Virus record (IMG/VR): IMGVR_UViG_3300042458_000246
Coordinates: 1 to 62,151 of that record
DNA length: 62,151 bases
Strand: one strand, 5' to 3'
Origin: a virus
Taxonomy: Duplodnaviria > Caudoviricetes
Below are positions 6,494 to 39,811 of this stretch, in pieces; the first letter of the stretch is position 1, and each line of letters starts with the position of its first letter. The translations under genes were made by a program, and so were the position numbers. The notes beneath the pieces are model-generated. The model was not told the DNA's origin, did not search any database, and saw nothing but the letters and a program-made list of their open reading frames with translations.

Positions 6494-6497
6494 AACG

Positions 6498-22823: not shown

Positions 22824-25025
22824 ATGAATCCATTAAATTATCTTACTGAACGTGTATCGAAGGTTGTCCCCAACTCAGATAAGATCTACAATGAGGGTGC
22901 TCGCCTTCTAGCACACTACCCAACATGGGAATATGAACTTGAAAGATTTATCAACGAATCTTGGGATACCCTCCTTAGATACTGCATTCGTAACAAGAAC
23001 GCAACGCATAGCGCCTCTGTTAAACTCACCTTTGCTTCTGACCTTATCGGAAAAAGAATTGCAAGAGCTATTGGAGCTGACGAACTTGATATCAAGTCAA
23101 CTCTATCGCTTGGAGATCTTCTTCTTGAAACGTTCCTTCAAGATGGACTGATTGACATCTTCAGGGAATATGCAGGATACAAAGCTCCTTATATGGTACG
23201 CATTGTTAACCAAGCAGATGATATTAAGCCAACATTAATTGGTACTTCATTTGAACCCTTGTTACCTATCATGGGTCTATATAGCCCACTAACTAAAGAA
23301 CCTTTTATTAAGGGCTGGACTAACTCTAAGCTATTCCATGATAACCTTAATAAAACATTTGTAAGGTCTCTTGAGACTCTTCGACAACAGTCTTGGAAGC
23401 TTAACATTCCTGTGTTAACTGCTATGCAAGCACAGACTCCTAAGGAAATCCTTGAGTTGGTCGATGAAGATGGTGTTGTAAGAGAATACAATATACACCA
23501 TGAGAACCTAGACTTACCTAAAAAACTGTCTCATACAGATGGTACTAAATTCCTTGGTAAGAAAGATCCTAAGCTACAACGTATGATGAGTAAATACTTT
23601 GAGTACATGCAAGTGCTTAAGAAGGCTGAGATGATTGGTGAAAGAACTTTCTTTCAGGAAGTCTCTTGTGACTACCGAGGTAGAGTATATTATGCAGAAT
23701 CATTTTTAGAGTTCCAAGGTAGTGACCTTGCTCGTAGCTTGTTTATGTTTGCTAACAAAAAGAAAGTTACTGAGAGAGGTTTATTCTGGATTAAAGTGCA
23801 TACAGCAGCTTGCTTTAATAAGTCTTTTATTATCAGTGATATACCTAAGTATTTTAAGACAGACTATAAAGCTTATCTTGAGGGTGAAGGTCTTGATACT
23901 ATATCAGTAGACAAAATGACTCTTGAAGATAGAGTTGCATGGGTAGATAACAACATTGAGTTTATCTATGATGTAGCTCGTACTAAGACTATTCATCCTG
24001 ATGCTGAAAAGTCTTATAGCTTCTTAGCTTGTTGTAATGAGTTGTTAGCTTATAAGAGAGCTAAGATGGAAGGTAAGGAGTTTATGTCTGGACTACCTAT
24101 ACCTATTGATGGTAGTAATAACGGATGGCAACACTTAGCAGCTATGTCTAAGGACAAACAAGCTGGTACGCTGGTTTCACTTGTTCCTACACCTATCCAG
24201 AAAGACTTCTACGTAGCTGTTGCTAAAGAACTCATTGGTATTATGCCTGAGTACTTTGAGATTAAAGATATGCCTATGAAACATATCAGAAAAGGTATAG
24301 CTAAACGAGGCTCAATGACTCGTGCATACAGTGCTGGTAAAATGCGTATAGCAAAAAACATGTATGAAGACTGTCACGTAGAAGGTTATACTGTTAAGTA
24401 CAATATTACTGAGGATCAATGTGATGTATTAGCAGGTAACTTAATCAAAGCTATTAACACTGTCTGTGCAGGACCACTTAAGACAACCAAGTATTTACAG
24501 AAGATTGCAGAACATGAACTCAATTCAGGAAGAAATCAACTTACATGGACAACACCCTCGGGGTTCCCAGTAATATATAAGGCTTACTTACAACATGAAC
24601 GTAAACAAAGAGGCACTATCAAGGGTATTCAAGGAAATAAAGATGGTCGTGTTATGCACGTTATCAAGGTTGATGTCCTTAACAAAGAAACAGGTGAACG
24701 GGTACCGTGCAGGAGAAGCTATGCTTCGGGTATTAGTCCTAATATTGTTCACTCCTATGATGCTGCTCATATGGCTAATACTATTGTTAGCTTCAATGGC
24801 TCTTTTGGTGCCGTACACGACTCCTTTAGCTCACATGCTTCTGAGATTGATTTCCTACAAGAAGTAACTAAAATGACATTCATAGCACAATATGATGTAG
24901 AAAACTTCTTTAACATACTTCAAGATAACCTTATGGATAATAAGGATAGCTTCACGTTTAATCAACCTGATCTAGGTAATTTAGAACTTTCTGATATAAC
25001 TAACTCGGAGTATTTCTTTTGTTAA
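22824..25025 (+). CDS. Single-subunit (T7-like) RNA polymerase, 733 aa
   Basis: DYRGRVY, motif A IDGSNNGWQH, B RKGIAKRGSMTRAYS, ISPNIVHSYDA, C VHDSF. Confidence 0.95.
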   Translation: MNPLNYLTERVSKVVPNSDKIYNEGARLLAHYPTWEYELERFINESWDTLLRYCIRNKNATHSASVKLTFASDLIGKRIARAIGADELDIKSTLSLGDLLLETFLQDGLIDIFREYAGYKAPYMVRIVNQADDIKPTLIGTSFEPLLPIMGLYSPLTKEPFIKGWTNSKLFHDNLNKTFVRSLETLRQQSWKLNIPVLTAMQAQTPKEILELVDEDGVVREYNIHHENLDLPKKLSHTDGTKFLGKKDPKLQRMMSKYFEYMQVLKKAEMIGERTFFQEVSCDYRGRVYYAESFLEFQGSDLARSLFMFANKKKVTERGLFWIKVHTAACFNKSFIISDIPKYFKTDYKAYLEGEGLDTISVDKMTLEDRVAWVDNNIEFIYDVARTKTIHPDAEKSYSFLACCNELLAYKRAKMEGKEFMSGLPIPIDGSNNGWQHLAAMSKDKQAGTLVSLVPTPIQKDFYVAVAKELIGIMPEYFEIKDMPMKHIRKGIAKRGSMTRAYSAGKMRIAKNMYEDCHVEGYTVKYNITEDQCDVLAGNLIKAINTVCAGPLKTTKYLQKIAEHELNSGRNQLTWTTPSGFPVIYKAYLQHERKQRGTIKGIQGNKDGRVMHVIKVDVLNKETGERVPCRRSYASGISPNIVHSYDAAHMANTIVSFNGSFGAVHDSFSSHASEIDFLQEVTKMTFIAQYDVENFFNILQDNLMDNKDSFTFNQPDLGNLELSDITNSEYFFC

Positions 25026-27480: not shown

Positions 27481-27499
27481 ATAAACATAGGACACAACA

Positions 27500-28887: not shown

Positions 28888-28940
28888 AAAAAAAAAATAA
28901 CCCCTACTAGGATAATTCCTAATAGGGGTTTTTTTATTTG
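28886..28940. terminator. Bidirectional intrinsic terminator between the two arms
   Basis: A-run, then AACCCCTACTAGGA-TAAT-TCCTAATAGGGGTT, then a T-run. Confidence 0.92.
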
Positions 28941-31900
28941 TCAGGTAAAGAAATAAATCATTCCCTTGTTGCCTCGTGCTTTAAGTTCTTTTAAGAATGC
29001 ATCACGTTTGTCTTTATATTTTAAGCTATCCCAAGCATATATGCCTGAATATTTTGAATTAAAATTATAATACATATACATATTATCTGCTAAAGATTTT
29101 GCCTGTTGTTTTGTAATACGAGTAGACTCAGGTCTATCAGGACCCGGAGGTGTATAACCTGAAGATTTACTTTCAAGAAATTCTTTTAATTTCTTTTGAT
29201 AATCTGCTAACTCATTTGGTTTTTTATCTTTTAGATATTTGTATTCACGATCAATAGTAGTAAACATACCTTTGTAAGGTGATCCTGGACCAACTACAAT
29301 TTCATCATTACGCATCATTTCAGGAACAGCTTCTCTGAGTTGCTTCATAAAGTCAGTAGTAAAACCTTTAGCCATGTTCCACTCAAACACTTTAGGAGCT
29401 ACAATATTGTTAGCTACATAGTGAACAAATGGATAACTCATAGAGTCAACAATAAAGTTATCAAACACAGGAATAATAAAGCTAGAGTCTGCTGGTGTCT
29501 TATTACCATTAAGTAACCTTGCTGTCTCAGCAATAATAATTGACTCACGGTATTGACCGAATGTAGGACCAACTTGGTTAACTGCTCCAGAACCTTCTTC
29601 AGGTGTAAACAAAGATCCATCGTCTAACCTTAAGCCCTTAGCTTTAGCTGGTGCTAATGGGTTAAACATTCTGGCAGTCTCCATTATACGTCTTCGTATA
29701 CCTTCTGTACCTTTAATCTGAACAATATTGCCTGTAGGTTCAGTACCAAATCTACCAATAGAAATGTTTTCATTATAGTAACCAATTGGCTTAGGCACTC
29801 GACCAAACATTTGTAAATACCTAACCATCTTTTTAGGTAATACATATTGCCAAGAGTCAGTTGTTTGTTTTAGAGTTGATTTATAAATTTCATTAATGTC
29901 TTTAGCTAAAGCATTAACGTCACCATTATAAAACCTTACTGCTTCATCTCTAAATTCAGGATGACTCTTTAAGAAAGCTTGGGCTTCTGCAATGTGGTAA
30001 TTAGCTGGCTTACCATAGTCGGTAGTCATCAAGACTTTCTTTGAGAAGTCTTTATTGAATTGTTTATTACCAGCAACTCCTGCACCACCATATTTAGCAA
30101 GTAGAATTTTAAAGTTTTCAACCTTATCTGGTTGGCTATCTCCAAATGCAGAAGCAATACCTTGATCTAGAGCTACTGTTGTAAAGTAATATCGTGGATC
30201 ACCTTTCTCATTAGGTAATGTATCGGTAAATAGATCACCAACTTTATCAATAAACTTATCCCATACCAAACCAACACGGCTTAAAATATCCATGTTACCA
30301 ACATCAGAAGCTAAGAAAGAACGACCAGCAGAATTCATATCAAGAGCTACAGTAACCCTTGGAGTAAAAGGAGTTCCATTTAACTTAGAATCTAAGTAAT
30401 TAGCGGCATCAAGATAAGCCTGAAGTTTGTAACCCCAGTCATCTCTATCTGCTTCTTTAAGGAAATTATCTAATGCACCCTTTTGAGCAGGAGTAAGTTT
30501 CTCAATAAGACCTTCTGGTTTGCCAAGAGCATTAACAACTTCACGAGTATTGTTAGGCACAATGCTACGCAACAATCTACCCTTTGCAGCAGCCTCAGCA
30601 ATAAACTCTGGTGTTACTGTTTGTAACAAGTCAGGCAACAAAATAGATTCAGATGACATACCCGCAGATCTACTTGAGTCAAGCACACGACCAAGAGTTG
30701 TAAGGAAGCTTAACTCTTTTTCATCTGATGACAAAGAAAAGTTATTGTTACGAGCTTTACCTGCAATCCTGTTAAAGAAACCTTCAGCAGTTGCTTTGTT
30801 AACACCTGTATTATGGAAGTTACTATTAAGCATAATAGGAGCAGACTTACCTACTGTTAATGCACGAGTCCACTTATTACGTTGTGGATTAAAGTCAGTT
30901 GCATCCTGATACATTCGGTGTGTTGCATAGTCTTCCCAGTAAGTAGAGAACTGCGGACCACCATAAGCTACATGTTTTGCCATGTCACCTAGTTCAGTCT
31001 GAAGATTGTTTACTTTTTGATCAATCACTTCTGCCGCTGTTTTGTTTCCATTAACAGAAGCATCTTGAATGTCTTCTTCAGATACCTTTAACAAGCCCAT
31101 AACATTTAATTGTGCTGGACTAGTTGGATTCATTACATGACCGAGAATAGCTTCATTAAACAAAGCAGCAAAGTAAGCTTTAACAGGAGAAATAAATAAG
31201 GGTACTTTAGCTACAGCACCTTTGGCTTCCGCCATTTCTTTGGTAGCAGTATACTCTTGCTTTTTCTTATCCATTTCACGGACGTCTTGCAACGCACCTT
31301 GATAAGCACCTGTCTCTGTTGGAGGAGCCTTTTGAGCTTTACCTGACAATGCACCAGTAACACTACGTTGCATGCCTTTGCTTTTGTATCTCAACTCAGC
31401 ACCTAAACCAGGACTTAACCGAAGAATCTCAGTACCTTGTGGATCAACATCCTCAATTAGATATCCTTTATCAACTAGTGCTTGGCTAATAGTTGCACCA
31501 GCCGCTTCATTAGAAATGTTTTGATTAATAGCTTGGGAGTCACCAACAAAGGTTTCTTCTCCTGCACCTTTAGATAACTTCTTAAACAGACGACCTAGGT
31601 TCTTTTCAACCATGTCCCGTTTAAGACCACCGTTAACAGCTACCTTACTTAGCGGACCATCACCATCATCCATTAACATTTGATCTAAACCACTGATATC
31701 AGAGTTGTCTTCAGCAGACATAATCTCACCGTCTTTTTGATTTGCAGCACCTGACAACATAGGGGCTAACAAAATAAAAGAAGTAGTAGCCGCATTACCA
31801 ACTTGTTTAGTATCTAAACCAGTACCTTGTTTAAGGTAAGTAAGACCATTGAGTTGTGCATTAGAAGTTGTTCCTTCTTTATACAAGCCAACACTTAAAT

Positions 31901-32444
31901 CGTTTAAACCATTAGCAATATTCATAGCAGTACGAACAATAGCACCTGCTTCAGTAGCTTGAACTGCACCATCACCATAAGCAGTCCTAATGCCTTCTTC
32001 ATTTTCCCAACGAGAAGGATCAAGGATTTTCCTTGCTTCCATTTGACTGTTACGTTCTTCTTGAAGTTTACTATAGTAGTCTTCGTTAGTACTTTCACTA
32101 GCAAAAGTATCCATACCAAAGCCACCATCCTCTTGAGGGGCTTCAGTCATCTCTGGCATGTCATCAATGGGTTGTTCGTTAAGAATTAACTCAGGAGGAA
32201 CAGGCTGGCGAACATCAGTACCTGCTAGTAGCCTTGCATCAGGAGGTAAACCAGAAAGCCTTCTTGGAGGAACAAATGCTTCTTCTTCACCAAACATTGC
32301 AGATGGATTAGGAACTACTTGTTGCTCAGGTGGTGGAGGAGCATTCATACGAGCATTAGCTTCGTTGATTTGCTGTTGAAGTAAATCGTCTGCAATACGT
32401 GGTATTGTAGGTACGTTAACCTTTGTATTAATATTAATCGCCAT
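28941..32444 (-). CDS. Putative virion-packaged single-subunit RNA polymerase (divergent), 1167 aa
   Basis: Collinear RNAP motifs DYATHRMY, FNPQRNKWTRAL, A VALDMNSAG, B KDFSKKVLMTTDYG, C PVFDNF; last gene of the ejection module. Confidence 0.75.
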   Translation of the reverse strand: MAININTKVNVPTIPRIADDLLQQQINEANARMNAPPPPEQQVVPNPSAMFGEEEAFVPPRRLSGLPPDARLLAGTDVRQPVPPELILNEQPIDDMPEMTEAPQEDGGFGMDTFASESTNEDYYSKLQEERNSQMEARKILDPSRWENEEGIRTAYGDGAVQATEAGAIVRTAMNIANGLNDLSVGLYKEGTTSNAQLNGLTYLKQGTGLDTKQVGNAATTSFILLAPMLSGAANQKDGEIMSAEDNSDISGLDQMLMDDGDGPLSKVAVNGGLKRDMVEKNLGRLFKKLSKGAGEETFVGDSQAINQNISNEAAGATISQALVDKGYLIEDVDPQGTEILRLSPGLGAELRYKSKGMQRSVTGALSGKAQKAPPTETGAYQGALQDVREMDKKKQEYTATKEMAEAKGAVAKVPLFISPVKAYFAALFNEAILGHVMNPTSPAQLNVMGLLKVSEEDIQDASVNGNKTAAEVIDQKVNNLQTELGDMAKHVAYGGPQFSTYWEDYATHRMYQDATDFNPQRNKWTRALTVGKSAPIMLNSNFHNTGVNKATAEGFFNRIAGKARNNNFSLSSDEKELSFLTTLGRVLDSSRSAGMSSESILLPDLLQTVTPEFIAEAAAKGRLLRSIVPNNTREVVNALGKPEGLIEKLTPAQKGALDNFLKEADRDDWGYKLQAYLDAANYLDSKLNGTPFTPRVTVALDMNSAGRSFLASDVGNMDILSRVGLVWDKFIDKVGDLFTDTLPNEKGDPRYYFTTVALDQGIASAFGDSQPDKVENFKILLAKYGGAGVAGNKQFNKDFSKKVLMTTDYGKPANYHIAEAQAFLKSHPEFRDEAVRFYNGDVNALAKDINEIYKSTLKQTTDSWQYVLPKKMVRYLQMFGRVPKPIGYYNENISIGRFGTEPTGNIVQIKGTEGIRRRIMETARMFNPLAPAKAKGLRLDDGSLFTPEEGSGAVNQVGPTFGQYRESIIIAETARLLNGNKTPADSSFIIPVFDNFIVDSMSYPFVHYVANNIVAPKVFEWNMAKGFTTDFMKQLREAVPEMMRNDEIVVGPGSPYKGMFTTIDREYKYLKDKKPNELADYQKKLKEFLESKSSGYTPPGPDRPESTRITKQQAKSLADNMYMYYNFNSKYSGIYAWDSLKYKDKRDAFLKELKARGNKGMIYFFT

Positions 32445-35400
32445 TTGATTTTCCTAACTCTTTTTGTAAGTATTTAGCGAAAGCGGGACTTGTTCCAACT
32501 ATGGGAAGCAGCTTCGCACCCTGTTCAATCTTTTTACCTTCCGGTGCCTCCAAAGCTCTTTTAACCTTATTAAGGTATGAAAGCTGTGCAGATTGATCGG
32601 CAATCTTATCTATAATATCTTTCTTTCTGTTGTCTTCCATCAACGGGAACATCTGATCAAACACTCTTTGTCCAGAACCTAAGATACCCATCTGATTAAT
32701 AACTCTTAAAAACTCTTTGTTTTCTTTAATCCATTTAGGTGGGCTTTCTCCGTACTTGATCATGTCTTTAATATACAAAGCAATCATAGACAAACCAATC
32801 ATCATAGCAATAACAGCTGCAGAATTCTTTTGGTCTTCTGATCCTGCTTTACGCAAATCGCCTAACAACCGTGGAAGAATATTAGCGGTAAATGCTGATG
32901 TGTATCCTGTAAATTGAGTAAACAATTTTAAATAAGGATCGCTATAAAACTTAGGTCTATTAAGAGTGCTAGGTAAAACAACAGCTTCATTAACAAAGTT
33001 GTAAGTAGCTTGTTGTAAGTTATTAACAACATAATCTTCTTTAGACTTTGTATCAGCATCAATAGCCATCATGTATTCATAGTCAACATTTATTCTTCTT
33101 AAATGATCTTTAGCATCTGTTATCTCTTGCTCTGTACCTGTACCTTGAGTAACAACATCTAACCAATTCTGAATAGCATCAGCTGCAATAGCTAAACGAG
33201 CATTACGGGTAATAGCAGTCACAGAAGTAAGACCAGTTATCTTAAAGAAACCATCAGTCCACTTTGAATAGTAGGAAGTTAATATATCATTACGATGTCC
33301 AATACCACCTTCCCTAAGGTATCCTGCTTCAGATAGTTCTGTTCTTATTCTAGCGTTCTTGATAAGAACCCTATCAGAAACTTTATTGCCAAGCTCTCGA
33401 TATATAGCACCCATCTCACTGCCTGTACTTTTAAGTAATGCAAGAGTAGCTTTAGCAGCTTGTGGTCTATTTAGATTACGATATATCTGAGCGAACTCTA
33501 CAGTAGAACTAATAGCGGCTAATGGTAATGCAGTAATAGTAGACAAAAAGTTAAGAGTATTCAAACCACCTTTTAAGTAAGGGTTAGTAATAGCTTTGTA
33601 CTCTCCATTACGTATTGCTAATACGTCTTGAATTTCTTTAGCTATAAATCCTGCTTGTTCAGTATCTATATCACCGTTGTCTAACATCTTTTGAACTAAT
33701 GCTGCAAGCTTAGAACCATTTTCTCCAATGAGTTCTTTATTAGTATTATATGCTGCTGCAGATGCCGCCAAAGAGTAAGCATTGTCTAATATATTATGAG
33801 ACATGTATTGACTAAATAAACTTTTAAATCCTGGTTGAGCTATCTTAGCTTCTAATTCTTGTTTACCTTTAATCTTTTCAGCATTACCATTAAGCATTGC
33901 ATCAAGAGAATCTTCAAAGCTATTTACTTGTTTGTTATCAAGTATTGCATTAGTTAATTGTGTTGCATCTGCATAATTCATATTCAAATGCTGTTGTAAA
34001 TCTTTAACAAACTTAGCAGAGTTTCTTGATACAAGTGCTTTATCTAATGGTTTGTGTTCTAAGAATTGTTGGACAGATAAATCTTTGCCTGTTGATTCAT
34101 TATATGCTCGAGTTAAATTACTTATTCTATCTGCATAATCAATAATAGAGTCTTTGTATTCACCAAATTTACCATAGTCAATAGCTATTTTATCAGCAAT
34201 ATCTCTGGTAGAATCAGCAAACAAATCTTTTTTAATACGAGTTAATTCTTTTATAGCGTTAACAACAGTAGGATTAGAGATAATACGAGAGGCTTCTGTA
34301 GCAGACACCCCACTAAAAGAAGAAATAAAGTTTTCACTATTACCGAAGTTCTTAAAGATGTTTGATTCCATCATAGCCTGATGGTTCTCAATAGACGTAC
34401 CATTAACAGCATTAGAACTACCTAATAATGTAGCTAATGTAGCTGAATAAATGCTCTTATGATTAGTATCACCAGTTATAATGTTAGAAAACTTAGAGAA
34501 TAATCCACCAATACCTTTATCTTTTATAGCTGAATACGTTTTAGCAACAACACCTTCAGTACCTCTTTTAGAAATTTCAGGCTCTGCTAAAACATCTAAC
34601 GATGTCTTAACATTATTCTTTAATTGTGATGTTTCTGTTTCATTAATAACTTGTTTAGTTGAGGGCATTGTAACAAGAGGTTGATCTCCTGCTGCAATAC
34701 GTTGCTCATTAACATCACTAAGATATTTCTCTCTGAACTCAACATCTGTTGATGATCTAGGTATCTGATCACTAGTTGTTAATGCTGAATAAGTTTTAAT
34801 ACCACCAGCTAATCCACCACCTAATACAGCACCGCCAGCACCTGCATTCATTAGTCTAGACTTTAACTTTGTCATTTCTTCTGGTGAAGAAGGTAATTCA
34901 AAACCACCTTTCTCACCAAAATAACTAGTTAACTCTTGTCCTGTTTCTGTTAAGCCCTCAACAAAAGCTCCTGCTCCTGTAGCTAAACCAATATCCTTTA
35001 GTTTACCCATCTTACTACCAGAAATTGCTTTAAAAGCAGTACTAACTTCTTTAACTGATTCAGTCATAGACTTACGAACTAGCTCTTCAGCCGCTTCTTT
35101 AGTCATTGTTTTTTGTAATTCTTTTACAACTAAATCTTGAGTAGATTTCTTAGCAATATTTAAACCAGTATTTTTAAATAAATATCCTAAGGATAATTTA
35201 TCTAATACTGTCATAGTAAATCCAGCGGCAATAGCAGCTGTTGCATTCTTATTCTTTTGATCATTGTATACTTGACCTGTATACATACTAAAAGGAACTG
35301 TTAAAGAAACACCATAAGTTAATGGTGCCGCCATTGTAGCAACAATACTAGTTAACATTTGTGGTGCAGAAGCAGCAGCACTTCCTACTGTCCAATCAAA

Positions 35401-36243
35401 GAATTTGCCTAGAGTATCTAGTTTCCAGTTACCTTTTTCATCAAACGCTTCTGCGCTTCTTAACTCAGGTATGTCTGTTAACATTGAATTTTTAGTATTG
35501 ATACCTGATTGTGCAAAACTTTTTATTGCTTCACTACCAGTCTTGTCAGCAATAAGATCAAAGGTACCATATACGCTTTTAGAAGCTTGTAATTTACCTT
35601 GATCCCAACCACTATCCCAGTTAGAAGTAGCTTTACCAAATTTATCTTCACCAGTTCTAATAATAGATGGACCAGAAAAATAATCGCTGTTGCCTGAATC
35701 ATCAACAACACTACCAAATTGACCAGCAGTATCTGTATAACGCTTAGCCATAATACCACTAGCATTACGTTCTTTATTTAATGAGTTAAGAATGTTGTCT
35801 GCTAATGTAGGTTTATTATCAGCTCTTCGTTGGGCACGTTCTAAATTACCCATATACATAGAAGTATATTGTTCAGCACTTGTAGAAGTAGTTGGATCAA
35901 CATAACCTAATTCAAGGGCTTTATTAGTAAGACGTTTTCCAGAGGGATCTAGTAGATCTCCAACTTCCCGCTTATAAGATTTGTCTCCTGTAAAAACAGG
36001 TGTAGTATAATTACCTTCACTAATTAAATTTTCCATAATAGTAGTTTGGAAATCAGCTCCTAATTGAGCACCTTTAATTAAATTAGGTTGAAACTTAGCA
36101 GTCTCTCTAGCGTTAATACCTTGAAGACGGATAGATTCCCCTGTGGGGGTTACCGCAGTATCAGCATCTTTAAGTGAAATACCTCCCGGTAAATCGGATT
36201 TCCTCGAAAAAATCTGTCGAAGTTCTTCGTCTAATCTATCCAT
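32434..36243 (-). CDS. Large internal virion/ejection protein with N-terminal SNase-like domain, 1269 aa
   Basis: LKDADT...IRLQGINARET...DKSYKR...LELGY; hydrophobic segments; position in the module. Confidence 0.75.
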   Translation of the reverse strand: MDRLDEELRQIFSRKSDLPGGISLKDADTAVTPTGESIRLQGINARETAKFQPNLIKGAQLGADFQTTIMENLISEGNYTTPVFTGDKSYKREVGDLLDPSGKRLTNKALELGYVDPTTSTSAEQYTSMYMGNLERAQRRADNKPTLADNILNSLNKERNASGIMAKRYTDTAGQFGSVVDDSGNSDYFSGPSIIRTGEDKFGKATSNWDSGWDQGKLQASKSVYGTFDLIADKTGSEAIKSFAQSGINTKNSMLTDIPELRSAEAFDEKGNWKLDTLGKFFDWTVGSAAASAPQMLTSIVATMAAPLTYGVSLTVPFSMYTGQVYNDQKNKNATAAIAAGFTMTVLDKLSLGYLFKNTGLNIAKKSTQDLVVKELQKTMTKEAAEELVRKSMTESVKEVSTAFKAISGSKMGKLKDIGLATGAGAFVEGLTETGQELTSYFGEKGGFELPSSPEEMTKLKSRLMNAGAGGAVLGGGLAGGIKTYSALTTSDQIPRSSTDVEFREKYLSDVNEQRIAAGDQPLVTMPSTKQVINETETSQLKNNVKTSLDVLAEPEISKRGTEGVVAKTYSAIKDKGIGGLFSKFSNIITGDTNHKSIYSATLATLLGSSNAVNGTSIENHQAMMESNIFKNFGNSENFISSFSGVSATEASRIISNPTVVNAIKELTRIKKDLFADSTRDIADKIAIDYGKFGEYKDSIIDYADRISNLTRAYNESTGKDLSVQQFLEHKPLDKALVSRNSAKFVKDLQQHLNMNYADATQLTNAILDNKQVNSFEDSLDAMLNGNAEKIKGKQELEAKIAQPGFKSLFSQYMSHNILDNAYSLAASAAAYNTNKELIGENGSKLAALVQKMLDNGDIDTEQAGFIAKEIQDVLAIRNGEYKAITNPYLKGGLNTLNFLSTITALPLAAISSTVEFAQIYRNLNRPQAAKATLALLKSTGSEMGAIYRELGNKVSDRVLIKNARIRTELSEAGYLREGGIGHRNDILTSYYSKWTDGFFKITGLTSVTAITRNARLAIAADAIQNWLDVVTQGTGTEQEITDAKDHLRRINVDYEYMMAIDADTKSKEDYVVNNLQQATYNFVNEAVVLPSTLNRPKFYSDPYLKLFTQFTGYTSAFTANILPRLLGDLRKAGSEDQKNSAAVIAMMIGLSMIALYIKDMIKYGESPPKWIKENKEFLRVINQMGILGSGQRVFDQMFPLMEDNRKKDIIDKIADQSAQLSYLNKVKRALEAPEGKKIEQGAKLLPIVGTSPAFAKYLQKELGKSNGD

Positions 36244-36253
36244 TTATTTTCCT

Positions 36254-38698
36254 TTATTTTAACTGCTTTTCTAATCTTGATTTTAAGAATTGGGCAAATG
36301 CGCTTTCAGTGTCTGTACCTTCAAATTCTTTGCGATAATTTTTACCGTTAGGTCCATTCCATTCTTTAGCTATTGCATTTACACCTAAAGCTATAGCTGA
36401 TTGATCTGCATTACCTTCTTTGTCAGAAGCAACCCGTCTGGCTAATGAGTAAATTTCACTAATCTTTTCGGGAGGCATTGCTTTGTTACCAATATTAAAC
36501 AAATTAGGATCAGTACCTGTAAGACCCATCCGATGAGTAACAATATCACGAGCCAAATAAGGTGCTATATTTGGAATACTACTAACCCTACCAGATTGTT
36601 TATCAGCAATCATTGCTTCAGTTGCTTGATTAATAAGTGCTGTAGCTTCTTGATACACATCTGCGTTTGTAATATCAAAACCTGAACGTTTTAAATATTG
36701 AAGAGTTTGTTGGGTAGCTACTTCAGGTGTTGGCATACCAGCTCTTTTAAGATTAGGTTCACCACTCTTAAGTGTTGTACCACCAAGCTTATTTTCATAA
36801 ATGCTTGAAACAGCATTTGCAGCTTTAGTAGTATGTTTTTCTAAACGCTCAATTTGAGCTTGAGGGCTATTCTCTTTAAAATTTTCACGAGCAATCATCA
36901 TAGCAAATTGATTACCAAAAGCAGTAGTTAAACGTTTATCTGCGGCTGCTTGATTTGACGCCATCATTCTTAATTGTTGTTCAAAACGCTTTTCGTCTCT
37001 TGTGCGATTATACTCATCTTTAATCTCAGCCATTTTAACTTGTTGAGCCGCAATAAAACGGTCATGCTCTCTACGGGCTTCTTCACGAGTTACAGTTCTC
37101 TTTTCAAGAGCAGCTGCATTATCTTCTGCACGAGCATCTTTAACTTCTTGACCACGAATTTGAACGGCAGCTGCACGAATAGCTTTGTTTTCGGCTTGTT
37201 GTAAAGCATTACGCTTAGATGAGTCTTCAAATGCTTGTTTACCTGCAAAGGCAAGAGCACGATTAACACCAAACTTTTTAGCACCAACAGCCGTTGATAT
37301 AGCCATACGAATAATGTCTTGATTATTTAAACCAAGTTCTTCTTTAAAGCCACTGGCAGTAAACAAGTTAGCTAATGAATCTGTAAAAGATTTTTCTGTC
37401 TTTTGTGTTCCAGACAACTCTTGAACAATCTCTGCTACACTACGAATTTTCCTAGATGCTTTAACAGGGTCTGTTTCATAATCTTTTCTTACACCAGAAA
37501 CAAAAGTAGGATCTGTACCTTCTTTAGGAGGAACTGTAGGAACAGCTACTGCTACAGGTGTATTTTGAGTATTAGCTTTATCACGTTCAATTAGTTGTTC
37601 TGTAGTCATTTGCGCTGGAGCAGCTGCAAGAGATGCAACAGGAACGGGTACTTCAGCTACTTGAGTAGGTACATTAACTGTTTCTGATTGTACTTCAGGT
37701 GATCCTAATGGATTTTTCATAATCCTATCAGGAATTGCAGGTACAACTGAAACATTAGGAGCAGGAACTGATGTATCTAAGTTTACTGGTGCAACCTCTC
37801 TTGATGTTATAACAGCATTAGAAGGAGGAGAATCAACAACAATAGAAGGTACTGCCGGAGTAGGCGGTCTCTTATCAATAGCAATTGCATTAGCAAATTC
37901 TTCAGCTTTATCTTTAGGATAACGCTCATCCCACACAGGAATTGTTGGTTGAATAATCATTGGCACTGCACCTTGACGTTTTCTTTCTTCGTCAATATCT
38001 GCATCGAGAGTACCATTATAGTACCCTGCCGCAGACTGTACTTGTTGAGGTACTACACCATATGTACCGTTATTATAGTTAGCTTGGGCAGAAGAACCAC
38101 GGCTAAAGTCAGGTACACTCATTGTGCCATGCATGAATGAAGACCCGGGTACGTCTGGATGACGATATGCTAATGATGGTACACCACTAGTACCATCTGC
38201 ATTATACATTGGAGCATCTGAATTACGTATGTTTACTGCACCGTCACGCATGTTAGCCTTACGACCCTCTTGCACCATACGCTTAATAGCTTTTTTATTC
38301 TTAGGATTCTGTGCGGCAGGTTGTGGTATAACTGCTTCTCCGGGAGTAAGCATAGCAGGAACTGTATCAGTGCCTCGTGCTTGGAACATAGGAGATTGAG
38401 GAAGACTACGCTGACCTTGTTTAAACATACCAGTACCTGCTAAAGGGTTCTGAGTTGGAATACCCAACTTTTGTTTGTTCATTTTAGGAGGAGGAATACC
38501 CATATCCTTAAGTTTAGCATTGTTAACTTGTTCTTTATGACCTAAACCTTGATTAGCTTTTGCAGCTGCTTCTTTAAGTTTAAGCTCATGTAATTGTTGT
38601 TTACGCATTTCATCAAGTCCCATTTTAGAAACTTCACGAGCTTCTTTATTTTGGAACTTAAGATATTCTCTTTGTTGTTTACCTGATAAGGGTGCCAT
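36254..38698 (-). CDS. Internal virion/ejection protein, 814 aa
   Basis: GTDTVPAMLTPGEAVIP motif, Pro-rich linker, coiled coil. Confidence 0.7.
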   Translation of the reverse strand: MAPLSGKQQREYLKFQNKEAREVSKMGLDEMRKQQLHELKLKEAAAKANQGLGHKEQVNNAKLKDMGIPPPKMNKQKLGIPTQNPLAGTGMFKQGQRSLPQSPMFQARGTDTVPAMLTPGEAVIPQPAAQNPKNKKAIKRMVQEGRKANMRDGAVNIRNSDAPMYNADGTSGVPSLAYRHPDVPGSSFMHGTMSVPDFSRGSSAQANYNNGTYGVVPQQVQSAAGYYNGTLDADIDEERKRQGAVPMIIQPTIPVWDERYPKDKAEEFANAIAIDKRPPTPAVPSIVVDSPPSNAVITSREVAPVNLDTSVPAPNVSVVPAIPDRIMKNPLGSPEVQSETVNVPTQVAEVPVPVASLAAAPAQMTTEQLIERDKANTQNTPVAVAVPTVPPKEGTDPTFVSGVRKDYETDPVKASRKIRSVAEIVQELSGTQKTEKSFTDSLANLFTASGFKEELGLNNQDIIRMAISTAVGAKKFGVNRALAFAGKQAFEDSSKRNALQQAENKAIRAAAVQIRGQEVKDARAEDNAAALEKRTVTREEARREHDRFIAAQQVKMAEIKDEYNRTRDEKRFEQQLRMMASNQAAADKRLTTAFGNQFAMMIARENFKENSPQAQIERLEKHTTKAANAVSSIYENKLGGTTLKSGEPNLKRAGMPTPEVATQQTLQYLKRSGFDITNADVYQEATALINQATEAMIADKQSGRVSSIPNIAPYLARDIVTHRMGLTGTDPNLFNIGNKAMPPEKISEIYSLARRVASDKEGNADQSAIALGVNAIAKEWNGPNGKNYRKEFEGTDTESAFAQFLKSRLEKQLK

Positions 38699-38707: not shown

Positions 38708-39811
38708 TTAAAATATTCCTAGCTTCTTAGCTAATAGAGCGCCACCAATAACCATACCTACAGGACCCATAGCGGCTAATGCGGCTTCACCACCTGCCAT
38801 TGCAGCACTAGATCCTGCAGCAGCTATACCAGCACCTTCAGCCGCAGCCGCAGGTAAAGCAGCACCAATACTAGCACCAATAGGAGCAACAGATGCAGTA
38901 CCAACGCCTTGAACAGCACCACCAATAGTAGCAGGAGCATTTAAAGCATATAAACTAGTAGATGCAGGAGCTGATAAAGCACCAACATTAGTTAATGCAA
39001 CAGGAGCGCCACTAGCAGTAGTACCCATAGTACCAATAGCATTAGATGTTAATGGTGCGCTATATGATTTGTATGCGGCATTAATTCCTTTTGCAGCGGC
39101 ATTAGTACCCATAGACGTAGCTTGATTACTCAGGTATTGTTCTGTTTGATCAGAAACGGCTTGAGGAATAACTGCTTCAGAAGGTTTAATAGATGCATTT
39201 AATGGAGCTACTTGTTCTTTCTTAGTCCAATTCCAAGGGTCATCTTCTTCTGCACTCATTGTACCTTGTGCATAACCTGATACAGATGTACTACCATAAG
39301 CGTATCCGGGAACTGACATAGTGCCGTTAGCCCAACCGGGAGAACCACTTGTAGCGGCACCAGCAGAACCATCATTACCATCAGTGTCACCAGCAGAAAC
39401 AGAAGCAGCAAGACCCTGATCAGCAGCAACAGCAGCAGCAGCATTGGCGGCATCAGATACTGCATCAGAAACTCCAATACTAGCGTTTACAGGAGCCGCT
39501 AAACCAGTAATACTGTTTGCTGTATTGTTATCTGACACAGTGTTACTACCAGAATTTGTTCCACCATCATTACCATCACCACCAGAGCTTCCACCGTCTG
39601 TTACAGTTGTATCTTTAGAAAGAGGTGCTACATAATTTTTTGTATAGTTATCTAAATATGTTTTACCATAAACAATAGGTGTGTTCATAGCAGTAGTTAA
39701 TGGTCTACCCATAGCATCTACTGTTGTACCACCACCTTTTCCACCGCTTGCTTGTTGAAGGGCGGCTTCTTTATTATAAGCATCTGCTGTTGCGCCTTGA
39801 ATACCAGCCAT
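38708..39811 (-). CDS. Ala/Gly-rich ejection (pilot-like) protein
   Basis: GGKGGG near the N-terminus; hydrophobic C-terminus AMGPVGMVIGGALLAKKLGIF. Confidence 0.65.
   Translation of the reverse strand: MAGIQGATADAYNKEAALQQASGGKGGGTTVDAMGRPLTTAMNTPIVYGKTYLDNYTKNYVAPLSKDTTVTDGGSSGGDGNDGGTNSGSNTVSDNNTANSITGLAAPVNASIGVSDAVSDAANAAAAVAADQGLAASVSAGDTDGNDGSAGAATSGSPGWANGTMSVPGYAYGSTSVSGYAQGTMSAEEDDPWNWTKKEQVAPLNASIKPSEAVIPQAVSDQTEQYLSNQATSMGTNAAAKGINAAYKSYSAPLTSNAIGTMGTTASGAPVALTNVGALSAPASTSLYALNAPATIGGAVQGVGTASVAPIGASIGAALPAAAAEGAGIAAAGSSAAMAGGEAALAAMGPVGMVIGGALLAKKLGIF

What the first reader, a model, noticed from the sequence alone, without database searches (positions are those of the whole stretch)
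28941..32444. Second, deeply divergent single-subunit RNA polymerase encoded as the last ejection protein: candidate stand-alone virion RNAP
Seen: aligned by eye to the phage's own 733-aa RNAP, the 1167-aa protein has each motif in order. DYATHRMY matches DYRGRVY (~30920), FNPQRNKWTRAL matches LEFQGSDLARSL, motif A VALDMNSAG matches IPIDGSNNG (~30340), motif B KDFSKKVLMTTDYG matches RKGIAKRGSMTRAYS (~30025), VGPTFGQYRE matches ISPNIVHSYD, and motif C VFDNF matches VHDSF (~29460). Both catalytic Asp and the motif-B Lys and Tyr are intact. It follows four ejection-type genes under late promoters and has a disordered Pro/acidic N-terminus. Known: N4-like phages inject a ~3500-aa vRNAP with a ~1100-aa catalytic core whose motif C, as I recall, also has FD; they use a two-subunit RNAP II and host RNAP for late genes. 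T7-like phages have one RNAP and no virion enzyme. Inference: this phage has a different two-polymerase programme, with an injected mini-vRNAP for early genes or DNA entry and a one-chain T7-like RNAP for middle and late genes, on an SU10-type virion. It could be independent of host RNAP. I cannot verify whether this has been described.
Basis: partly seen in the sequence, partly recalled or inferred. Interest (0 to 1): 0.92.

Follow-up and report, generated by a model that had tools for sequence, protein, structure and literature searches.

The report
Hidden second RNA polymerase, likely injected
A marine phage that already has a T7-type RNA polymerase carries a second, very divergent one at the end of its DNA-ejection genes, so it is probably packed in the virus particle and injected to start infection.

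Summary
ORF 28941-32444 (-), 1167 aa, has no Pfam, PHROG, PDB-sequence or cultured-phage BLAST match, yet it is a complete single-subunit RNA polymerase.

- **Fold:** the AlphaFold2 model (pLDDT 86.6) matches yeast mitochondrial, T7 and N4 RNAPs (Foldseek E to 2.7e-14; Z 24.8, 24.5 and 19.4).
- **Profiles:** profile comparisons give E 7.4e-10 to T7-like RNAPs and 1.3e-11 to N4-like vRNAPs. These place D702, K802, Y810 and D995 on the catalytic residues.
- **Conservation:** D702, Y810, D995 and R510 are invariant in 74 homologues down to about 17% identity. K802 is kept in at least 90%.

Injection is inferred, not shown. The gene ends the late operon, as N4 gp50 does. It sits in a 3846-aa block of five cysteine-free genes, and the family has 14 Cys in 88,979 residues. 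N4 gp50/51/52 are likewise cysteine-free and T7 gp14-16 nearly so. It co-occurs with the T7-like RNAP in 20 of 20 informative relatives, and cultured Roseobacter phage CRP-7 gp33 is a member.

I read it as a third deep lineage of phage single-subunit RNAPs: a stand-alone virion polymerase. I found no report of it in six literature searches. The "SU10-type virion" and host-RNAP independence are unsupported.

The parts
28941..32444 (-). RNAP2: 1167-aa divergent single-subunit RNA polymerase with no cysteine; last gene of the late (structural/ejection) operon
   Evidence: ORF. AF2 model pLDDT 86.6, pTM 0.87. Foldseek E 2.7e-14 to 1e-10 to mitochondrial, T7 and N4 RNAPs. VIA-align Z 24.8/24.5/19.4. 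hhalign E 7.4e-10 and 1.3e-11. 0 Cys.
32121..32444 (-). N-terminal extension, residues 1-108: Pro/acidic-rich, predicted disordered, poorly conserved, with no counterpart in T7 RNAP
   Evidence: pLDDT below 50 for residues 1-23 and 28-108. Structural alignments start at model residue about 99-142. Alignment A1.
30909..30932 (-). T/DxxGR-type motif DYATHRMY (D505-Y512); R510 is invariant
   Evidence: Aligned to T7 D421-Y427 (R510=R425, Y512=Y427) and to N4 mini-vRNAP R424. R510 invariant in 74 of 74 sequences.
30321..30353 (-). Motif A, TVALDMNSAGR (T698-R708), with catalytic D702
   Evidence: D702=T7 D537=N4 D559; G707=T7 G542. D702 and G707 invariant in 74 of 74. A strand (698-703) followed by a helix (706-715) in the model.
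30009..30059 (-). Motif B / O-helix, FNKDFSKKVLMTTDYGK (F796-K812)
   Evidence: K802=T7 K631=N4 K670; Y810=T7 Y639=N4 Y678; G811=G640; K798 sits at T7 R627/N4 R666 but is not conserved. Y810 invariant; K802 and G811 at least 90%.
29661..29753 (-). Long beta-hairpin (residues 898-928) between motifs B and C, in the position of the T7 specificity loop
   Evidence: Strands 898-911 and 917-928 in the model. hhalign places them opposite T7 about 717-770. The function is inferred.
29454..29471 (-). Motif C, PVFDNF (P992-F997), with catalytic D995
   Evidence: D995=T7 D812, F994=T7 H811. D995 invariant in 74 of 74. Beta-hairpin 990-993/996-1000. N4-like vRNAPs have F950-D951; distant family members have VHD.
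28944..28955 (-). Conserved extreme C-terminus YFFT-COOH, analogous to T7 FAFA-COOH and this phage's T7-like RNAP YFFC-COOH
   Evidence: F1165 invariant; F1166 and T1167 at least 90% in A1. VIA-align rows run to model residue 1167 against T7 residue 883. The role is inferred from recalled T7 knowledge.
28888..28940 (.). Bidirectional intrinsic terminator between the converging late (-) and replication (+) modules
   Evidence: Hairpin of -26.4 kcal/mol, z -5.4, flanked by A and T runs.
32434..36243 (-). g1269: 1269-aa, mostly alpha-helical protein with no cysteine and an N-terminal staphylococcal-nuclease-like domain. Candidate largest internal virion (IVP-D-like) protein. Its stop overlaps the RNAP2 start by 11 nt.
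   Evidence: phrog_6958 'virion structural protein' E 7.4e-18. 0 Cys. AF2 model poor, pLDDT 55.4. All top 50 Foldseek rows are SNase, E about 0.02, over about 132 columns. No match to N4 gp50.
36254..38698 (-). g814: 814-aa protein with no cysteine, a conserved N-terminus (GTDTVPAMLTPGEAVIP) and a variable Pro-rich remainder. Candidate IVP-C-like ejection protein.
   Evidence: 0 Cys. Alignment A6. No Pfam, PHROG or PDB hit. The assignment rests on position and size only.
38708..39811 (-). g367: 367-aa protein with no cysteine and unknown function, inside the same block
39811..40500 (-). g229: 229-aa protein with no cysteine and a weak match to a 'DNA ejection protein' family
   Evidence: phrog_4287 E 0.0016. 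0 Cys.
22824..25025 (+). The phage's conventional T7-like RNAP, 733 aa with 10 Cys, in the replication module
   Evidence: PF00940 E 8.5e-56; phrog_414 E 4.3e-96. 10 Cys. Present in 20 of 20 related loci that extend far enough.
4796..4810 (-). Promoter-like motif AGTCGGTACATAATA at the head of the late operon. It belongs to the class AGyCGGTACCTAATA, probably the T7-like RNAP promoter. Other copies: 8408-8422 (-), 14916-14930 (+), 25075-25089 (+), 27231-27245 (+), 47861-47875 (-).
   Evidence: 7 matches at up to 3 mismatches against 3.06 expected, so this count alone is not significant; conserved in 4 of 5 related genomes at 5-11 sites each, with 0 in the reversed control.
6497..6516 (+). Repeated early-region element GTACCTTAAAGACATTCTCT, with a second copy at 7955-7974 (+). 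Unassigned; a candidate early regulatory or promoter element.
   Evidence: 2 matches against 0.01 expected. Found only in the near-identical relative G001, not in G002-G005.

Best explanation
ORF 28941-32444 encodes a catalytically competent single-subunit DNA-dependent RNA polymerase ('RNAP2'). It has the full T7-type domain set: an N-terminal domain, palm, fingers and thumb, a specificity-loop-like hairpin and an aromatic C-terminal end. It belongs to a third deep lineage beside the T7-like/mitochondrial enzymes and the N4 virion enzyme.

The proposed mechanism has five steps:
1. The gene is made late, as the last gene of the structural/ejection operon.
2. [quoted passage not shown]
3. It is expelled unfolded through the tail and envelope at infection.
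4. It refolds in the cytoplasm and transcribes early genes at the leading genome end, which probably helps pull the DNA in.
5. The conventional T7-like RNAP, encoded in the replication module, then takes over from promoters of the class AGyCGGTACCTAATA, which head the late operon.

**Shown in silico:** RNAP fold, catalytic residues, gene position, cysteine depletion, co-occurrence with the T7-like RNAP and conservation of synteny.

**Inferred:** packaging, ejection, early-gene specificity and the DNA-pulling role.

My odds: active RNAP about 0.9; virion-packaged and ejected about 0.65; early transcription as its job about 0.5.
For: **RNAP identity**
- AF2 model from 74 sequences, no templates: pLDDT 86.6, pTM 0.87.
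- Foldseek against PDB gives 73 hits at E<=1e-3. All 41 listed rows are single-subunit RNAPs: 8c5s_A 2.7e-14, T7 8dh3_I 3.7e-13, N4 3c3l_A 7.6e-12.
- VIA-align: yeast mtRNAP Z 24.8 (745 aligned, rmsd 6.5), T7 Z 24.5 (554 aligned, rmsd 4.7; model 117-1167 against T7 26-883), N4 mini-vRNAP Z 19.4 (749 aligned). All 50 listed entries are single-subunit RNAPs.
- In BFVD, every named row among the 50 listed is a T7-like RNAP or an N4-like vRNAP, or a protein of a phage that carries one; 14 rows have no name.
- hhalign gives E 7.4e-10 against T7-like RNAPs and E 1.3e-11 against N4-like vRNAPs. For scale, T7-like against N4-like gives 1.9e-9.
- The catalytic residues are invariant across 74 sequences.

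**Virion/ejection reading**
- It is the last gene of a roughly 38-kb minus-strand late unit and is followed by a strong bidirectional terminator.
- N4 gp50 holds the same place, converging on the replication module behind gp52 and gp51. Those three are the N4 ejection proteins (PMC13434306, passages read).
- RNAP2 has 0 Cys in 1167 aa. The five consecutive genes from 28941 to 40500 have 0 Cys in 3846 aa, against 1.37% Cys in the rest of the genome. P(0 Cys in 1167 aa) is about 1e-7.
- The family has 14 Cys in 88,979 aa, and 64 of 74 members have none. The T7-like RNAPs of the same phages have 9-14 each.
- N4 gp50/51/52 have 0 Cys in 4294 aa, and CRP-7 gp33/34/35 have 0. T7 gp14/15/16 have 2 in 2261 aa.
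- Lack of cysteine was already read as a requirement for passage of the N4 vRNAP (PMC3821669, passage read).
- Block sizes of 138/229/(367)/814/1269 aa parallel T7 gp13-16 at 138/196/747/1318 aa.
- Synteny g138-g229-g814-g1269-RNAP2 facing g93-g175-RNR-T7RNAP holds in all 26 IMG/VR loci as far as each contig reaches. The T7-like RNAP is present in 20 of 20 loci that reach far enough; 6 are truncated.
- RNAP2 and g1269 diverge together, and much faster than the replication genes. In L026, RNAP2 is 37% and g1269 47% identical, against T7RNAP 92% and DNAP 97%.
- Hardies et al. already showed that internal virion proteins can host cytoplasm-destined domains, including the N4 RNAP inside an IVP-D homologue (PMC4819975, passages read).
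Against: - There is no direct evidence of packaging, ejection or activity.
- The protein lacks the N4 gp50 N- and C-terminal domains. The N4 paper ties the NTD to ejection through gp51 and to the membrane complex, and the CTD to autoinhibition. A different packaging and ejection route would therefore be needed.
- The upstream proteins could not be linked to T7 gp13-16 or N4 gp50-52 by sequence or fold. The g1269 model was poor (pLDDT 55.4).
- No promoter class could be assigned to RNAP2. Sigma-70-like sites are not enriched in the early region (39 found against 38 expected). A hairpin scan gave no shared N4-type motif.
- The active site is unusual. H509 replaces the G of T/DxxGR, K798 at the T7 R627 position is not conserved, and Q964 replaces H784.
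- Pfam PF00940 and all RNAP PHROGs miss the protein.
- With single-sequence templates, hhalign is not significant (E 0.069 for T7, 0.0069 for N4, 0.05 for P0002).
- 10 of 74 family members have 1-2 Cys.
- Some non-ejected proteins also lack cysteine: the scaffold protein here, and N4 MCP and gp57.
Confidence: 0.6

Rival explanations
1. RNAP2 is an active RNA polymerase but is not packaged. It works in the cytoplasm late in infection, for example as a very-late transcriptase, a primer-making enzyme for replication or packaging, or a back-up when the T7-like enzyme is inhibited.
For: The RNAP fold and catalytic residues are the same as in the main reading. No packaging signal or N4-type flanking domains were found. 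Some non-ejected proteins also lack Cys.
Against: - An enzyme made only at the end of the late operon cannot drive that operon.
- The near-total absence of Cys across a 74-member family, while the cytoplasmic T7-like RNAPs of the same phages carry 9-14 Cys, is hard to explain for a purely cytoplasmic enzyme.
- It co-diverges with the neighbouring virion protein rather than with the replication genes.
- Its position is identical to that of N4 gp50.
Confidence: 0.15
2. RNAP2 is an ejected internal protein that keeps the RNAP fold but no longer makes functional transcripts. It would serve as a DNA-binding clamp or translocation motor, or as the cytoplasmic end of the ejectosome.
For: - Its position and cysteine depletion are those of ejection proteins.
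- It carries unusual substitutions at T7 G424, R627 and H784.
- It diverges quickly.
Against: - Both metal-binding Asp residues, the O-helix Tyr and R510 are invariant, and the O-helix Lys is kept in at least 90%, across sequences that share only about 17-20% identity.
- The NTP-side residues and the C-terminal aromatic end are conserved.
- Such conservation is the signature of retained catalysis. Translocation by transcription would itself need catalysis.
Confidence: 0.1
3. RNAP2 is packaged and injected, but its product is not early mRNA. It might make replication primers, a non-coding or decoy RNA against host defence, or transcripts that only pull the DNA in.
For: No early promoter class was identified. 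Host-type promoters cannot be excluded for early genes. The neighbouring ejected-type protein carries a nuclease-like domain, which suggests that the injected set performs several cytoplasmic tasks.
Against: The only characterised injected single-subunit RNAP, N4's, makes early mRNA. The T7-like RNAP gene lies 17.8 kb into the plus-strand module, so something must transcribe the first genes. This rival is not excluded by any test here.
Confidence: 0.1

Closest known systems
Bacteriophage N4 virion RNA polymerase gp50 (Schitoviridae), mini-vRNAP domain (PDB 2po4, 3c3l, 9pnq)
   Same: - Single-subunit RNAP fold (Z 19.4, 749 aligned; hhalign E 1.3e-11).
- Shared catalytic residues: R510=R424, D702=D559, K802=K670, Y810=Y678.
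- 'FD' in motif C.
- No cysteine.
- Last gene of the late/ejection operon, converging on the replication module.
   Different: - It is 1167 aa and stands alone, where gp50 is about 3500 aa with large N- and C-terminal domains. No family member exceeds 1413 aa among 87 representatives.
- It has a free T7-like C-terminal end.
- No tblastn or PHROG link to N4-like vRNAPs.
- It sits after a separate 1269-aa IVP-D-like protein rather than being fused to one.
- The partner polymerase is a single-chain T7-like RNAP, not N4's heterodimeric RNAPII plus host RNAP.
- No hairpin promoters were found.
T7-like phage RNAP (Autographiviridae gene 1; Pfam PF00940) and mitochondrial RNAPs (Rpo41, POLRMT)
   Same: - Best structural matches: Z 24.8 to yeast mtRNAP and 24.5 to T7, spanning T7 residues 26-883.
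- hhalign E 7.4e-10 with all motifs in register.
- A specificity-loop-like hairpin and an aromatic C-terminal end.
   Different: - About 10-13% identity, and missed by PF00940 and phrog_414.
- About 110 aa of disordered N-terminal extension plus insertions.
- H for G in T/DxxGR, Q for H784 and F for H811.
- No Cys, against 9-14.
- A late-operon gene rather than an early or middle gene.
- It always coexists with a bona fide T7-like RNAP.
Roseobacter phage CRP-7 gp33 (MK613349, 1235 aa, annotated hypothetical protein)
   Same: - Distant homologue of the family (hhalign probability 99.4%, E 7.4e-22, 747 columns).
- Same syntenic place behind gp35 and gp34 and facing the T7-like RNAP gp30.
- 0 Cys.
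- Capsid 51.6% identical to this phage's.
   Different: - Too far for BLAST (best E 0.003).
- Motif C reads IHD, as in T7.
- The CRP-7 paper describes only ORF30 as an RNAP (PMC6918029, passages read).
T7 internal virion/ejection proteins gp13-gp16 (IVP-A to IVP-D), and Hardies' view that IVPs host cytoplasm-destined domains
   Same: - The upstream genes follow the same size order, 138/229/814/1269 against 138/196/747/1318 aa.
- They are helical and cysteine-poor.
- g1269 carries an extra enzymatic-looking (SNase-like) domain, in line with PMC4819975.
   Different: No sequence or fold similarity was detected. Here the polymerase is a separate polypeptide, not a domain inside IVP-D.
Alteromonas phages AltAD45-P1..P4, split N4-type vRNAP (ORF126/127)
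   Same: A precedent for a virion-type RNAP that is not one 3500-aa chain (PMC3821669, passages read).
   Different: Those ORFs (1404 + 2481 aa) are BLAST-recognisable halves of N4 gp50 in an N4-like genome. One half has cysteines. There is no accompanying T7-like RNAP.

Membership tests
Single-subunit DNA-dependent RNAP superfamily (T7 / mitochondrial / N4 class) | Right-hand polymerase fold with the T7-type N-terminal domain, palm, fingers and thumb | tested here: met
   Foldseek E 2.7e-14 to 1e-10, with only ssRNAPs among the listed rows. VIA-align Z 24.8/24.5/19.4 over model residues about 100-1167.
Single-subunit DNA-dependent RNAP superfamily (T7 / mitochondrial / N4 class) | Two catalytic Asp residues (motif A and motif C) | tested here: met
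   D702=T7 D537=N4 D559 and D995=T7 D812. Both are invariant in 74 of 74 sequences.
Single-subunit DNA-dependent RNAP superfamily (T7 / mitochondrial / N4 class) | Motif B: O-helix Lys and Tyr-Gly (T7 K631, Y639, G640); Arg at T7 R627 | tested here: met
   K802 (at least 90%), Y810 (invariant) and G811 (at least 90%) are aligned. The R627 position is K798 and is not conserved, so this sub-feature is not met.
Single-subunit DNA-dependent RNAP superfamily (T7 / mitochondrial / N4 class) | T/DxxGR motif | tested here: inconclusive
   D505-x-x-x-H509-R510: the Arg is invariant and aligned to T7 R425/N4 R424, but the Gly is replaced by His or other residues.
Single-subunit DNA-dependent RNAP superfamily (T7 / mitochondrial / N4 class) | Template-dependent RNA synthesis | not testable with these tools
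   Needs an in vitro assay.
Pfam PF00940 RNA_pol / PHROG 414 (T7-like RNAP as defined by sequence models) | Score above the family model's threshold | tested here: not met
   No Pfam family at E<=0.1 and no PHROG at E<=0.01 for P0001. P0002 scores 8.5e-56 and 4.3e-96.
N4-like virion RNAP (Schitoviridae gp50) | Giant polypeptide of about 3400-3500 aa, with N- and C-terminal domains flanking the polymerase | tested here: not met
   The protein is 1167 aa. The 87 family representatives are at most 1413 aa. g1269 shows no similarity to gp50.
N4-like virion RNAP (Schitoviridae gp50) | Recognisable sequence similarity to gp50 (BLAST, or phrog_2166 'N4-like RNA polymerase') | tested here: not met
   tblastn against 50,697 phage records found no match, and there were no PHROG hits. 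Only profile-profile comparison links them, at E 1.3e-11.
N4-like virion RNAP (Schitoviridae gp50) | Late gene at the distal end of the ejection-protein operon | tested here: met
N4-like virion RNAP (Schitoviridae gp50) | No cysteine residues | tested here: met
   0 of 1167 residues here, and 64 of 74 family members have none. N4 gp50 has 0 of 3500.
N4-like virion RNAP (Schitoviridae gp50) | Present in virions and ejected into the host | not testable with these tools
   Needs virion proteomics and infection experiments.
N4-like virion RNAP (Schitoviridae gp50) | Hairpin-type early promoters (5-7 bp stem, 3-nt loop; recalled from the N4 literature) | tested here: inconclusive
   12 of 75 perfect hairpins lie in non-coding DNA, but no shared flanking motif was seen.
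T7-type ejection proteins gp14/gp15/gp16 (for the upstream genes g229, g814, g1269) | Sequence or fold similarity to solved gp14/15/16 or their N4/DEV counterparts | tested here: inconclusive
   No PDB sequence hits. The g1269 model was poor and matched only SNase at its N-terminus. g229 has a weak phrog_4287 'DNA ejection protein' hit at E 0.0016. g138 against T7 gp13 gives E 48.
T7-type ejection proteins gp14/gp15/gp16 (for the upstream genes g229, g814, g1269) | Gene order and sizes after the tail genes; cysteine depletion | tested here: met
   138/229/(367)/814/1269 aa against T7 138/196/747/1318 aa. 0 Cys in g229-g1269, against 2 in 2261 aa for T7 gp14-16.

The most novel reading that the evidence does not exclude
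CRP-7-type marine podoviruses run a two-polymerase programme built from two single-subunit phage RNAPs. One is a stand-alone, cysteine-free virion RNAP of a third deep lineage. It is injected after the IVP-type ejection proteins, pulls in the genome, and transcribes early genes from its own fast-evolving promoters. The other is a conventional T7-like RNAP for middle and late genes.

This arrangement would be the unfused counterpart, possibly the ancestral state, of the N4 giant vRNAP, in which the polymerase became embedded in the IVP-D-type ejection protein. It could also make early infection independent of host RNAP.
Probability: 0.3. Interest if true: 0.9.

Novelty: new variant of a known kind. 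Interest (0 to 1): 0.78.

Why it matters
Injected single-subunit RNAPs are so far a hallmark of one family, the Schitoviridae (N4-like phages). T7-like phages are textbook examples of relying on host RNAP to begin infection.

This finding matters for four reasons:
- **A new lineage.** A stand-alone virion-type RNAP of about 1100-1400 aa, sitting in a phage group that also has a T7-like RNAP, would show that the injected-polymerase strategy is older or more widespread than thought.
- **An evolutionary intermediate.** It offers a natural intermediate for how the N4 giant vRNAP arose, with the polymerase separate from IVP-D here and fused to it in N4.
- **A possible tool.** It adds a third deep branch of single-subunit RNAPs with unknown promoter specificity, which could be useful as orthogonal transcription enzymes.
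- **Directly testable.** The group is abundant in the ocean (CRP-7-type; PMC6918029) and has a cultured member, CRP-7 gp33. The question can therefore be settled with ordinary virion proteomics and in vitro transcription.

The case also shows that standard annotation (Pfam, PHROGs, BLAST) misses an entire polymerase family.

Tried and rejected
**Searches that found nothing for P0001**
- Pairwise BLASTP of P0001 against P0002: nothing.
- Pfam and PHROGs: nothing.
- tblastn against INPHARED phages: nothing.
- phmmer and hmmsearch of P0001, A1 and A2 against PDB sequences: nothing meaningful.
- hhalign of A1 or A2 against single sequences (P0002, T7, N4): not significant. Only profile against profile worked.

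**Upstream proteins**
- I tried to show that they are T7 or N4 ejection-protein homologues.
  - PDB sequence searches of g1269 and g814 gave only noise.
  - tblastn of g1269 gave one weak Aeromonas phage hit.
  - hhalign of A5 against N4 gp50 gave nothing.
  - The ESM Atlas gave only unnamed clusters plus an SNase lead.
  - The AF2 model of g1269 was poor. Foldseek matched only the SNase-like N-terminus.
  - g138 against T7 gp13 gave nothing.
- I chose not to fold g814, because most of it is poorly conserved and Pro-rich.

**Promoters**
- Exact k-mer counting found no repeated 11-13-mers.
- The generic repeat finder gave mostly coding repeats.
- The sigma-70 scan showed no enrichment.
- The GGGGTACCCC palindromes at 4877-4997 were not above chance.
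- The hairpin scan gave no N4-type promoter set.

I rejected the idea that the AGyCGGTACCTAATA motif belongs to RNAP2. It stays conserved in genomes where RNAP2 has diverged to 31-34% identity while the T7-like RNAP is 65-74% identical. This is an inference, not a proof.

**Not attempted or not checked**
- A phylogeny of all single-subunit RNAPs was not attempted, because identity is only about 10-13%.
- The 'SU10-type virion' claim was not specifically tested. The capsid's best cultured match is CRP-7.
- Supplementary files of the papers were not opened. The CRP-7 paper's supplements could hold annotation or proteomic detail that I did not see.

Full report
**What is there**

The window is a virus record of 62,151 bases. 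Its ends overlap: 135-352 equals 61934-62151 at 98%. It therefore represents a circularly assembled genome of about 61.8 kb.

Genes form two converging units.
- **Plus-strand unit (5011-28887).** It holds small early ORFs, then DNA polymerase, exonuclease, primase/helicase, a 733-aa T7-like RNAP (22824-25025), ribonucleotide reductase and a tRNA-Met.
- **Minus-strand unit.** It starts at the terminase (3099-4739) and runs through the portal, across the window ends, then through scaffold, capsid, tail fibres and endolysin. It continues through a run of large unannotated genes: 40500-40916 (138 aa), 39811-40500 (229 aa), 38708-39811 (367 aa), 36254-38698 (814 aa) and 32434-36243 (1269 aa). It ends with the ORF of the finding, 28941-32444 (1167 aa).

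A strong hairpin flanked by A and T runs fills the 53-bp gap where the two units meet (-26.4 kcal/mol, z -5.4).

Standard annotation sees nothing in the 1167-aa protein (P0001):
- no Pfam or PHROG family;
- no tblastn match in 50,697 phage records;
- no PDB sequence match, even with profiles;
- no BLASTP similarity to the phage's own RNAP.

The protein does have a family. A word-indexed search found 26 proteins. A full HMMER scan of 1.84 billion representatives found 87 clusters at E<=1e-3. All are unannotated, nearly all are 1000-1400 aa long, and the longest is 1413 aa.

In an alignment of 74 of them, down to about 17-20% identity, nine columns are invariant: R510, R527, G622, D702, G707, G725, R751, Y810 and D995. 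K802 and G811 are kept in at least 90%.

**It is a single-subunit RNA polymerase**

An AlphaFold2 model built from the 74-sequence alignment, without templates, is confident (pLDDT 86.6, pTM 0.87). Only residues 1-108 are disordered.

| Search | Result |
|---|---|
| Foldseek vs PDB | 73 matches at E<=1e-3; every listed row is a single-subunit RNAP |
| – yeast mitochondrial RNAP | E 2.7e-14 |
| – T7 RNAP | E 3.7e-13 |
| – N4 mini-vRNAP | E 7.6e-12 |
| – human POLRMT | about 1e-11 |
| VIA-align, yeast mtRNAP | Z 24.8, 745 residues |
| VIA-align, T7 RNAP | Z 24.5, 554 residues at 4.7 Å; model 117-1167 vs T7 26-883 |
| VIA-align, N4 mini-vRNAP | Z 19.4, 749 residues |
| Foldseek vs BFVD (viral) | every named row among the 50 listed is an N4-like vRNAP or T7-like RNAP, or a protein of a phage that has one; 14 rows are unnamed |

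The T7 match spans both the N-terminal domain and the extreme C-terminus.

At sequence level, profile-profile comparison with a T7-like RNAP alignment (T7, this phage, CRP-7, RSB3 and 12 metagenomic relatives) gives probability 96.5%, E 7.4e-10 over 610 columns. Against six N4-like vRNAP polymerase domains it gives probability 97.4%, E 1.3e-11 over 454 columns.

The residue correspondences are:

| RNAP2 | T7 RNAP | N4 mini-vRNAP |
|---|---|---|
| R510 | R425 | R424 |
| D702 | D537 | D559 |
| K798 | R627 | R666 |
| K802 | K631 | K670 |
| Y810 | Y639 | Y678 |
| Q964 | H784 | not aligned |
| F994-D995 | H811-D812 | not aligned |

For scale, the T7-like and N4-like profiles match each other at E 1.9e-9. 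The three groups are therefore about equally far apart, and I read this family as a third deep lineage.

Several model features fit the T7 plan:
- a strand then a helix at motif A;
- a beta-hairpin with D995 at its turn;
- a long hairpin (898-928) where T7 has its specificity loop;
- a conserved YFFT-COOH end, compared with T7 FAFA and this phage's T7-like enzyme YFFC.

There are also departures. H replaces G in T/DxxGR, the R627 position is not conserved, and Q replaces H784.

**Is it a virion, injected enzyme?**

Nothing here can show packaging, but five lines of evidence point that way.

1. **Position.** It is the last gene of the late operon, and its start overlaps the stop of the 1269-aa gene by 11 nt. 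Phage N4 has the same layout. Its gp50 vRNAP is the last gene of the minus-strand late unit, behind gp52 and gp51, and converges on the replication genes. Those three are the N4 ejection proteins (PMC13434306, passages).

2. **Cysteine.**
   - RNAP2 has none in 1167 residues.
   - The five consecutive genes from 28941 to 40500 have none in 3846 residues. The rest of the genome has 1.37%, so the chance of zero in 1167 residues is about 1e-7.
   - Across the 74-member family there are 14 Cys in 88,979 residues, and 64 members have none. The T7-like RNAPs of the same phages have 9-14 each.
   - N4 gp50, gp51 and gp52 have none, while neighbouring N4 genes do.
   - T7 gp14, gp15 and gp16 have 1, 0 and 1 in 2261 residues, against 13 in T7 RNAP.
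   - CRP-7 gp33, gp34 and gp35 have none.
   - The absence of cysteine in N4 vRNAP has been read as a requirement for passage through the tail and periplasm (PMC3821669, passage).
   - A caveat: scaffold and some capsid proteins also lack cysteine.

3. **Size order.** The upstream genes (138, 229, [367], 814, 1269 aa) mirror T7 gp13-16 (138, 196, 747, 1318 aa). g1269 hits a 'virion structural protein' PHROG (E 7.4e-18) and g229 weakly hits a 'DNA ejection protein' PHROG.

4. **Conserved synteny.** In 26 IMG/VR loci the order g138-g229-g814-g1269-RNAP2 facing g93-g175-RNR-T7RNAP is kept as far as each contig reaches. All 20 loci that extend far enough also carry the T7-like RNAP; six are truncated before that point.

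5. **Divergence.** RNAP2 and g1269 diverge together and far faster than the replication genes. In L026, RNAP2 is 37% and g1269 47% identical, against 92% for the T7-like RNAP and 97% for DNA polymerase. This fits a module exposed to the host envelope, or one that is exchanged as a unit.

Hardies et al. already argued that podoviral internal virion proteins host cytoplasm-destined domains, with the N4 RNAP embedded in an IVP-D homologue (PMC4819975, passages). Here the polymerase would be a separate chain next to the IVP-D-like gene.

**What speaks against it, or is missing**

- The protein lacks N4's flanking domains.
- The upstream proteins could not be tied to T7 or N4 ejection proteins by sequence or fold.
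- The g1269 model was poor (pLDDT 55.4).
- I could not assign a promoter to RNAP2.

A motif AGyCGGTACCTAATA sits in the right orientation at several places:
- at the head of the late operon (4796-4810, -);
- before the 46291-47841 gene (47861-47875, -);
- before 14949, the RNR gene and the tRNA (+);
- before a lone minus-strand ORF (8408-8422).

The count in this window alone is not above chance: 7 matches at up to 3 mismatches against 3.06 expected, and 6 of 100 shuffles reach 7. It is, however, conserved at 5-11 sites in four related genomes, with none in the reversed control. Those genomes keep the T7-like RNAP at 65-95% identity while RNAP2 ranges from 31% to 98%. I therefore assign the motif to the T7-like enzyme, by inference.

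The early region holds a 20-nt element present twice (6497 and 7955; 0.01 expected). It recurs only in the near-identical relative. It is a candidate, no more. Sigma-70-like sites are not enriched, and no N4-type hairpin set emerged.

**Relation to what is known**

- **Closest in function:** the N4 vRNAP. Membership in that family fails on size, domain plan and sequence recognition.
- **Closest in fold:** the T7 and mitochondrial enzymes. Membership by the Pfam and PHROG models fails.
- **Cultured member:** CRP-7 gp33, annotated as hypothetical (hhalign probability 99.4%, E 7.4e-22). The CRP-7 paper names only ORF30 as an RNAP (PMC6918029, passages).
- **Literature:** six full-text searches found no report of this family as a polymerase, and none of a T7-like-RNAP phage with a virion RNAP.
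  - The nearest precedent is the split N4-type vRNAP of the AltAD45 phages.
  - The StenR_269 paper offers a speculative 'vRNAP' call based only on size, helices and lack of cysteine (PMC10747016, passages).
  - The library is not the whole literature, and supplements were closed.

**Verdict**

The RNAP identity is about 0.9 likely, the virion/ejected status about 0.65, and the early-transcription role about 0.5. It is a new variant of a known kind: a stand-alone, cysteine-free, virion-type single-subunit RNAP of a new deep lineage, paired with a T7-like RNAP in CRP-7-type marine podoviruses. It can be tested directly in a cultured phage.

Noticed in passing
window 35824-36186 (-), residues about 20-140 of the 1269-aa protein: The N-terminus of the candidate IVP-D-like protein looks like a staphylococcal nuclease (SNase/OB) domain.
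- It carries the motif LKDADT...RL.GINARE, with D26, D28, T29, R39 and E47 invariant in A5 (12 sequences) and at least 90% in A7.
- The ESM Atlas gives a lead to PF00565 at 0.89.
- All top 50 Foldseek rows are SNase, at E about 0.02.

This suggests an injected nuclease-like domain.
   Followed up: partly
L007-L032 compared with window 28941-36243: RNAP2 and the 1269-aa gene diverge much faster than the adjacent replication genes among related phages. In L026 and L015, RNAP2 is 37% identical, against 92% and 78% for the T7-like RNAP. This suggests module exchange or an arms race at the ejection module.
   Followed up: partly
window 4796-4810, 8408-8422, 47861-47875 (-); 14916-14930, 25075-25089, 27231-27245 (+): A conserved promoter-like motif, AGyCGGTACCTAATA, lies in gene orientation at operon heads. 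It has 5-11 copies in four related genomes and none in a fifth, more distant one. It is probably the T7-like RNAP promoter.
   Followed up: partly
window 6497-6516 and 7955-7974 (+): A 20-nt element, GTACCTTAAAGACATTCTCT, is present twice in early intergenic DNA. The second copy overlaps a 6-bp/3-nt hairpin (7948-7962) and is followed by a partial third repeat. It is found only in the near-identical relative.
   Followed up: partly
window 135-352 and 61934-62151; also 1-102 and 61438-61539: The window ends repeat (218 nt at 98%; 102 nt at 85%). This indicates a circular or terminally redundant assembly whose break falls inside the portal region.
   Followed up: no
window 27340-27499 (+): ARAGORN calls one tRNA-Met (27250-27323). 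The stretch downstream (about 27395-27475) reads like a second tRNA, ending in a GGTGTTCGAATCCCAC T-arm, but it was not called. It may be interrupted or unusual.
   Followed up: no
window 7988-8371 (-): A lone 127-aa minus-strand ORF sits inside the plus-strand early region. It is preceded by a copy of the promoter-like motif (8408-8422, -).
   Followed up: no
window 55800-56500 (-), within the 1947-aa tail-fibre gene: There are extensive 21-nt-periodic direct repeats coding for Ala/Ser/Thr-rich heptads.
   Followed up: no
window 36254-38698 (-), N-terminal about 150 aa: The 814-aa protein has a strongly conserved N-terminal motif, GTDTVPAMLTPGEAVIP, followed by a highly variable Pro-rich body. 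Its length ranges from 705 to 1146 aa among relatives.
   Followed up: no
window 13829-14434 (+): A 201-aa ORF in the early/middle region matches a homing-endonuclease family (phrog_314, E 1.4e-9).
   Followed up: no
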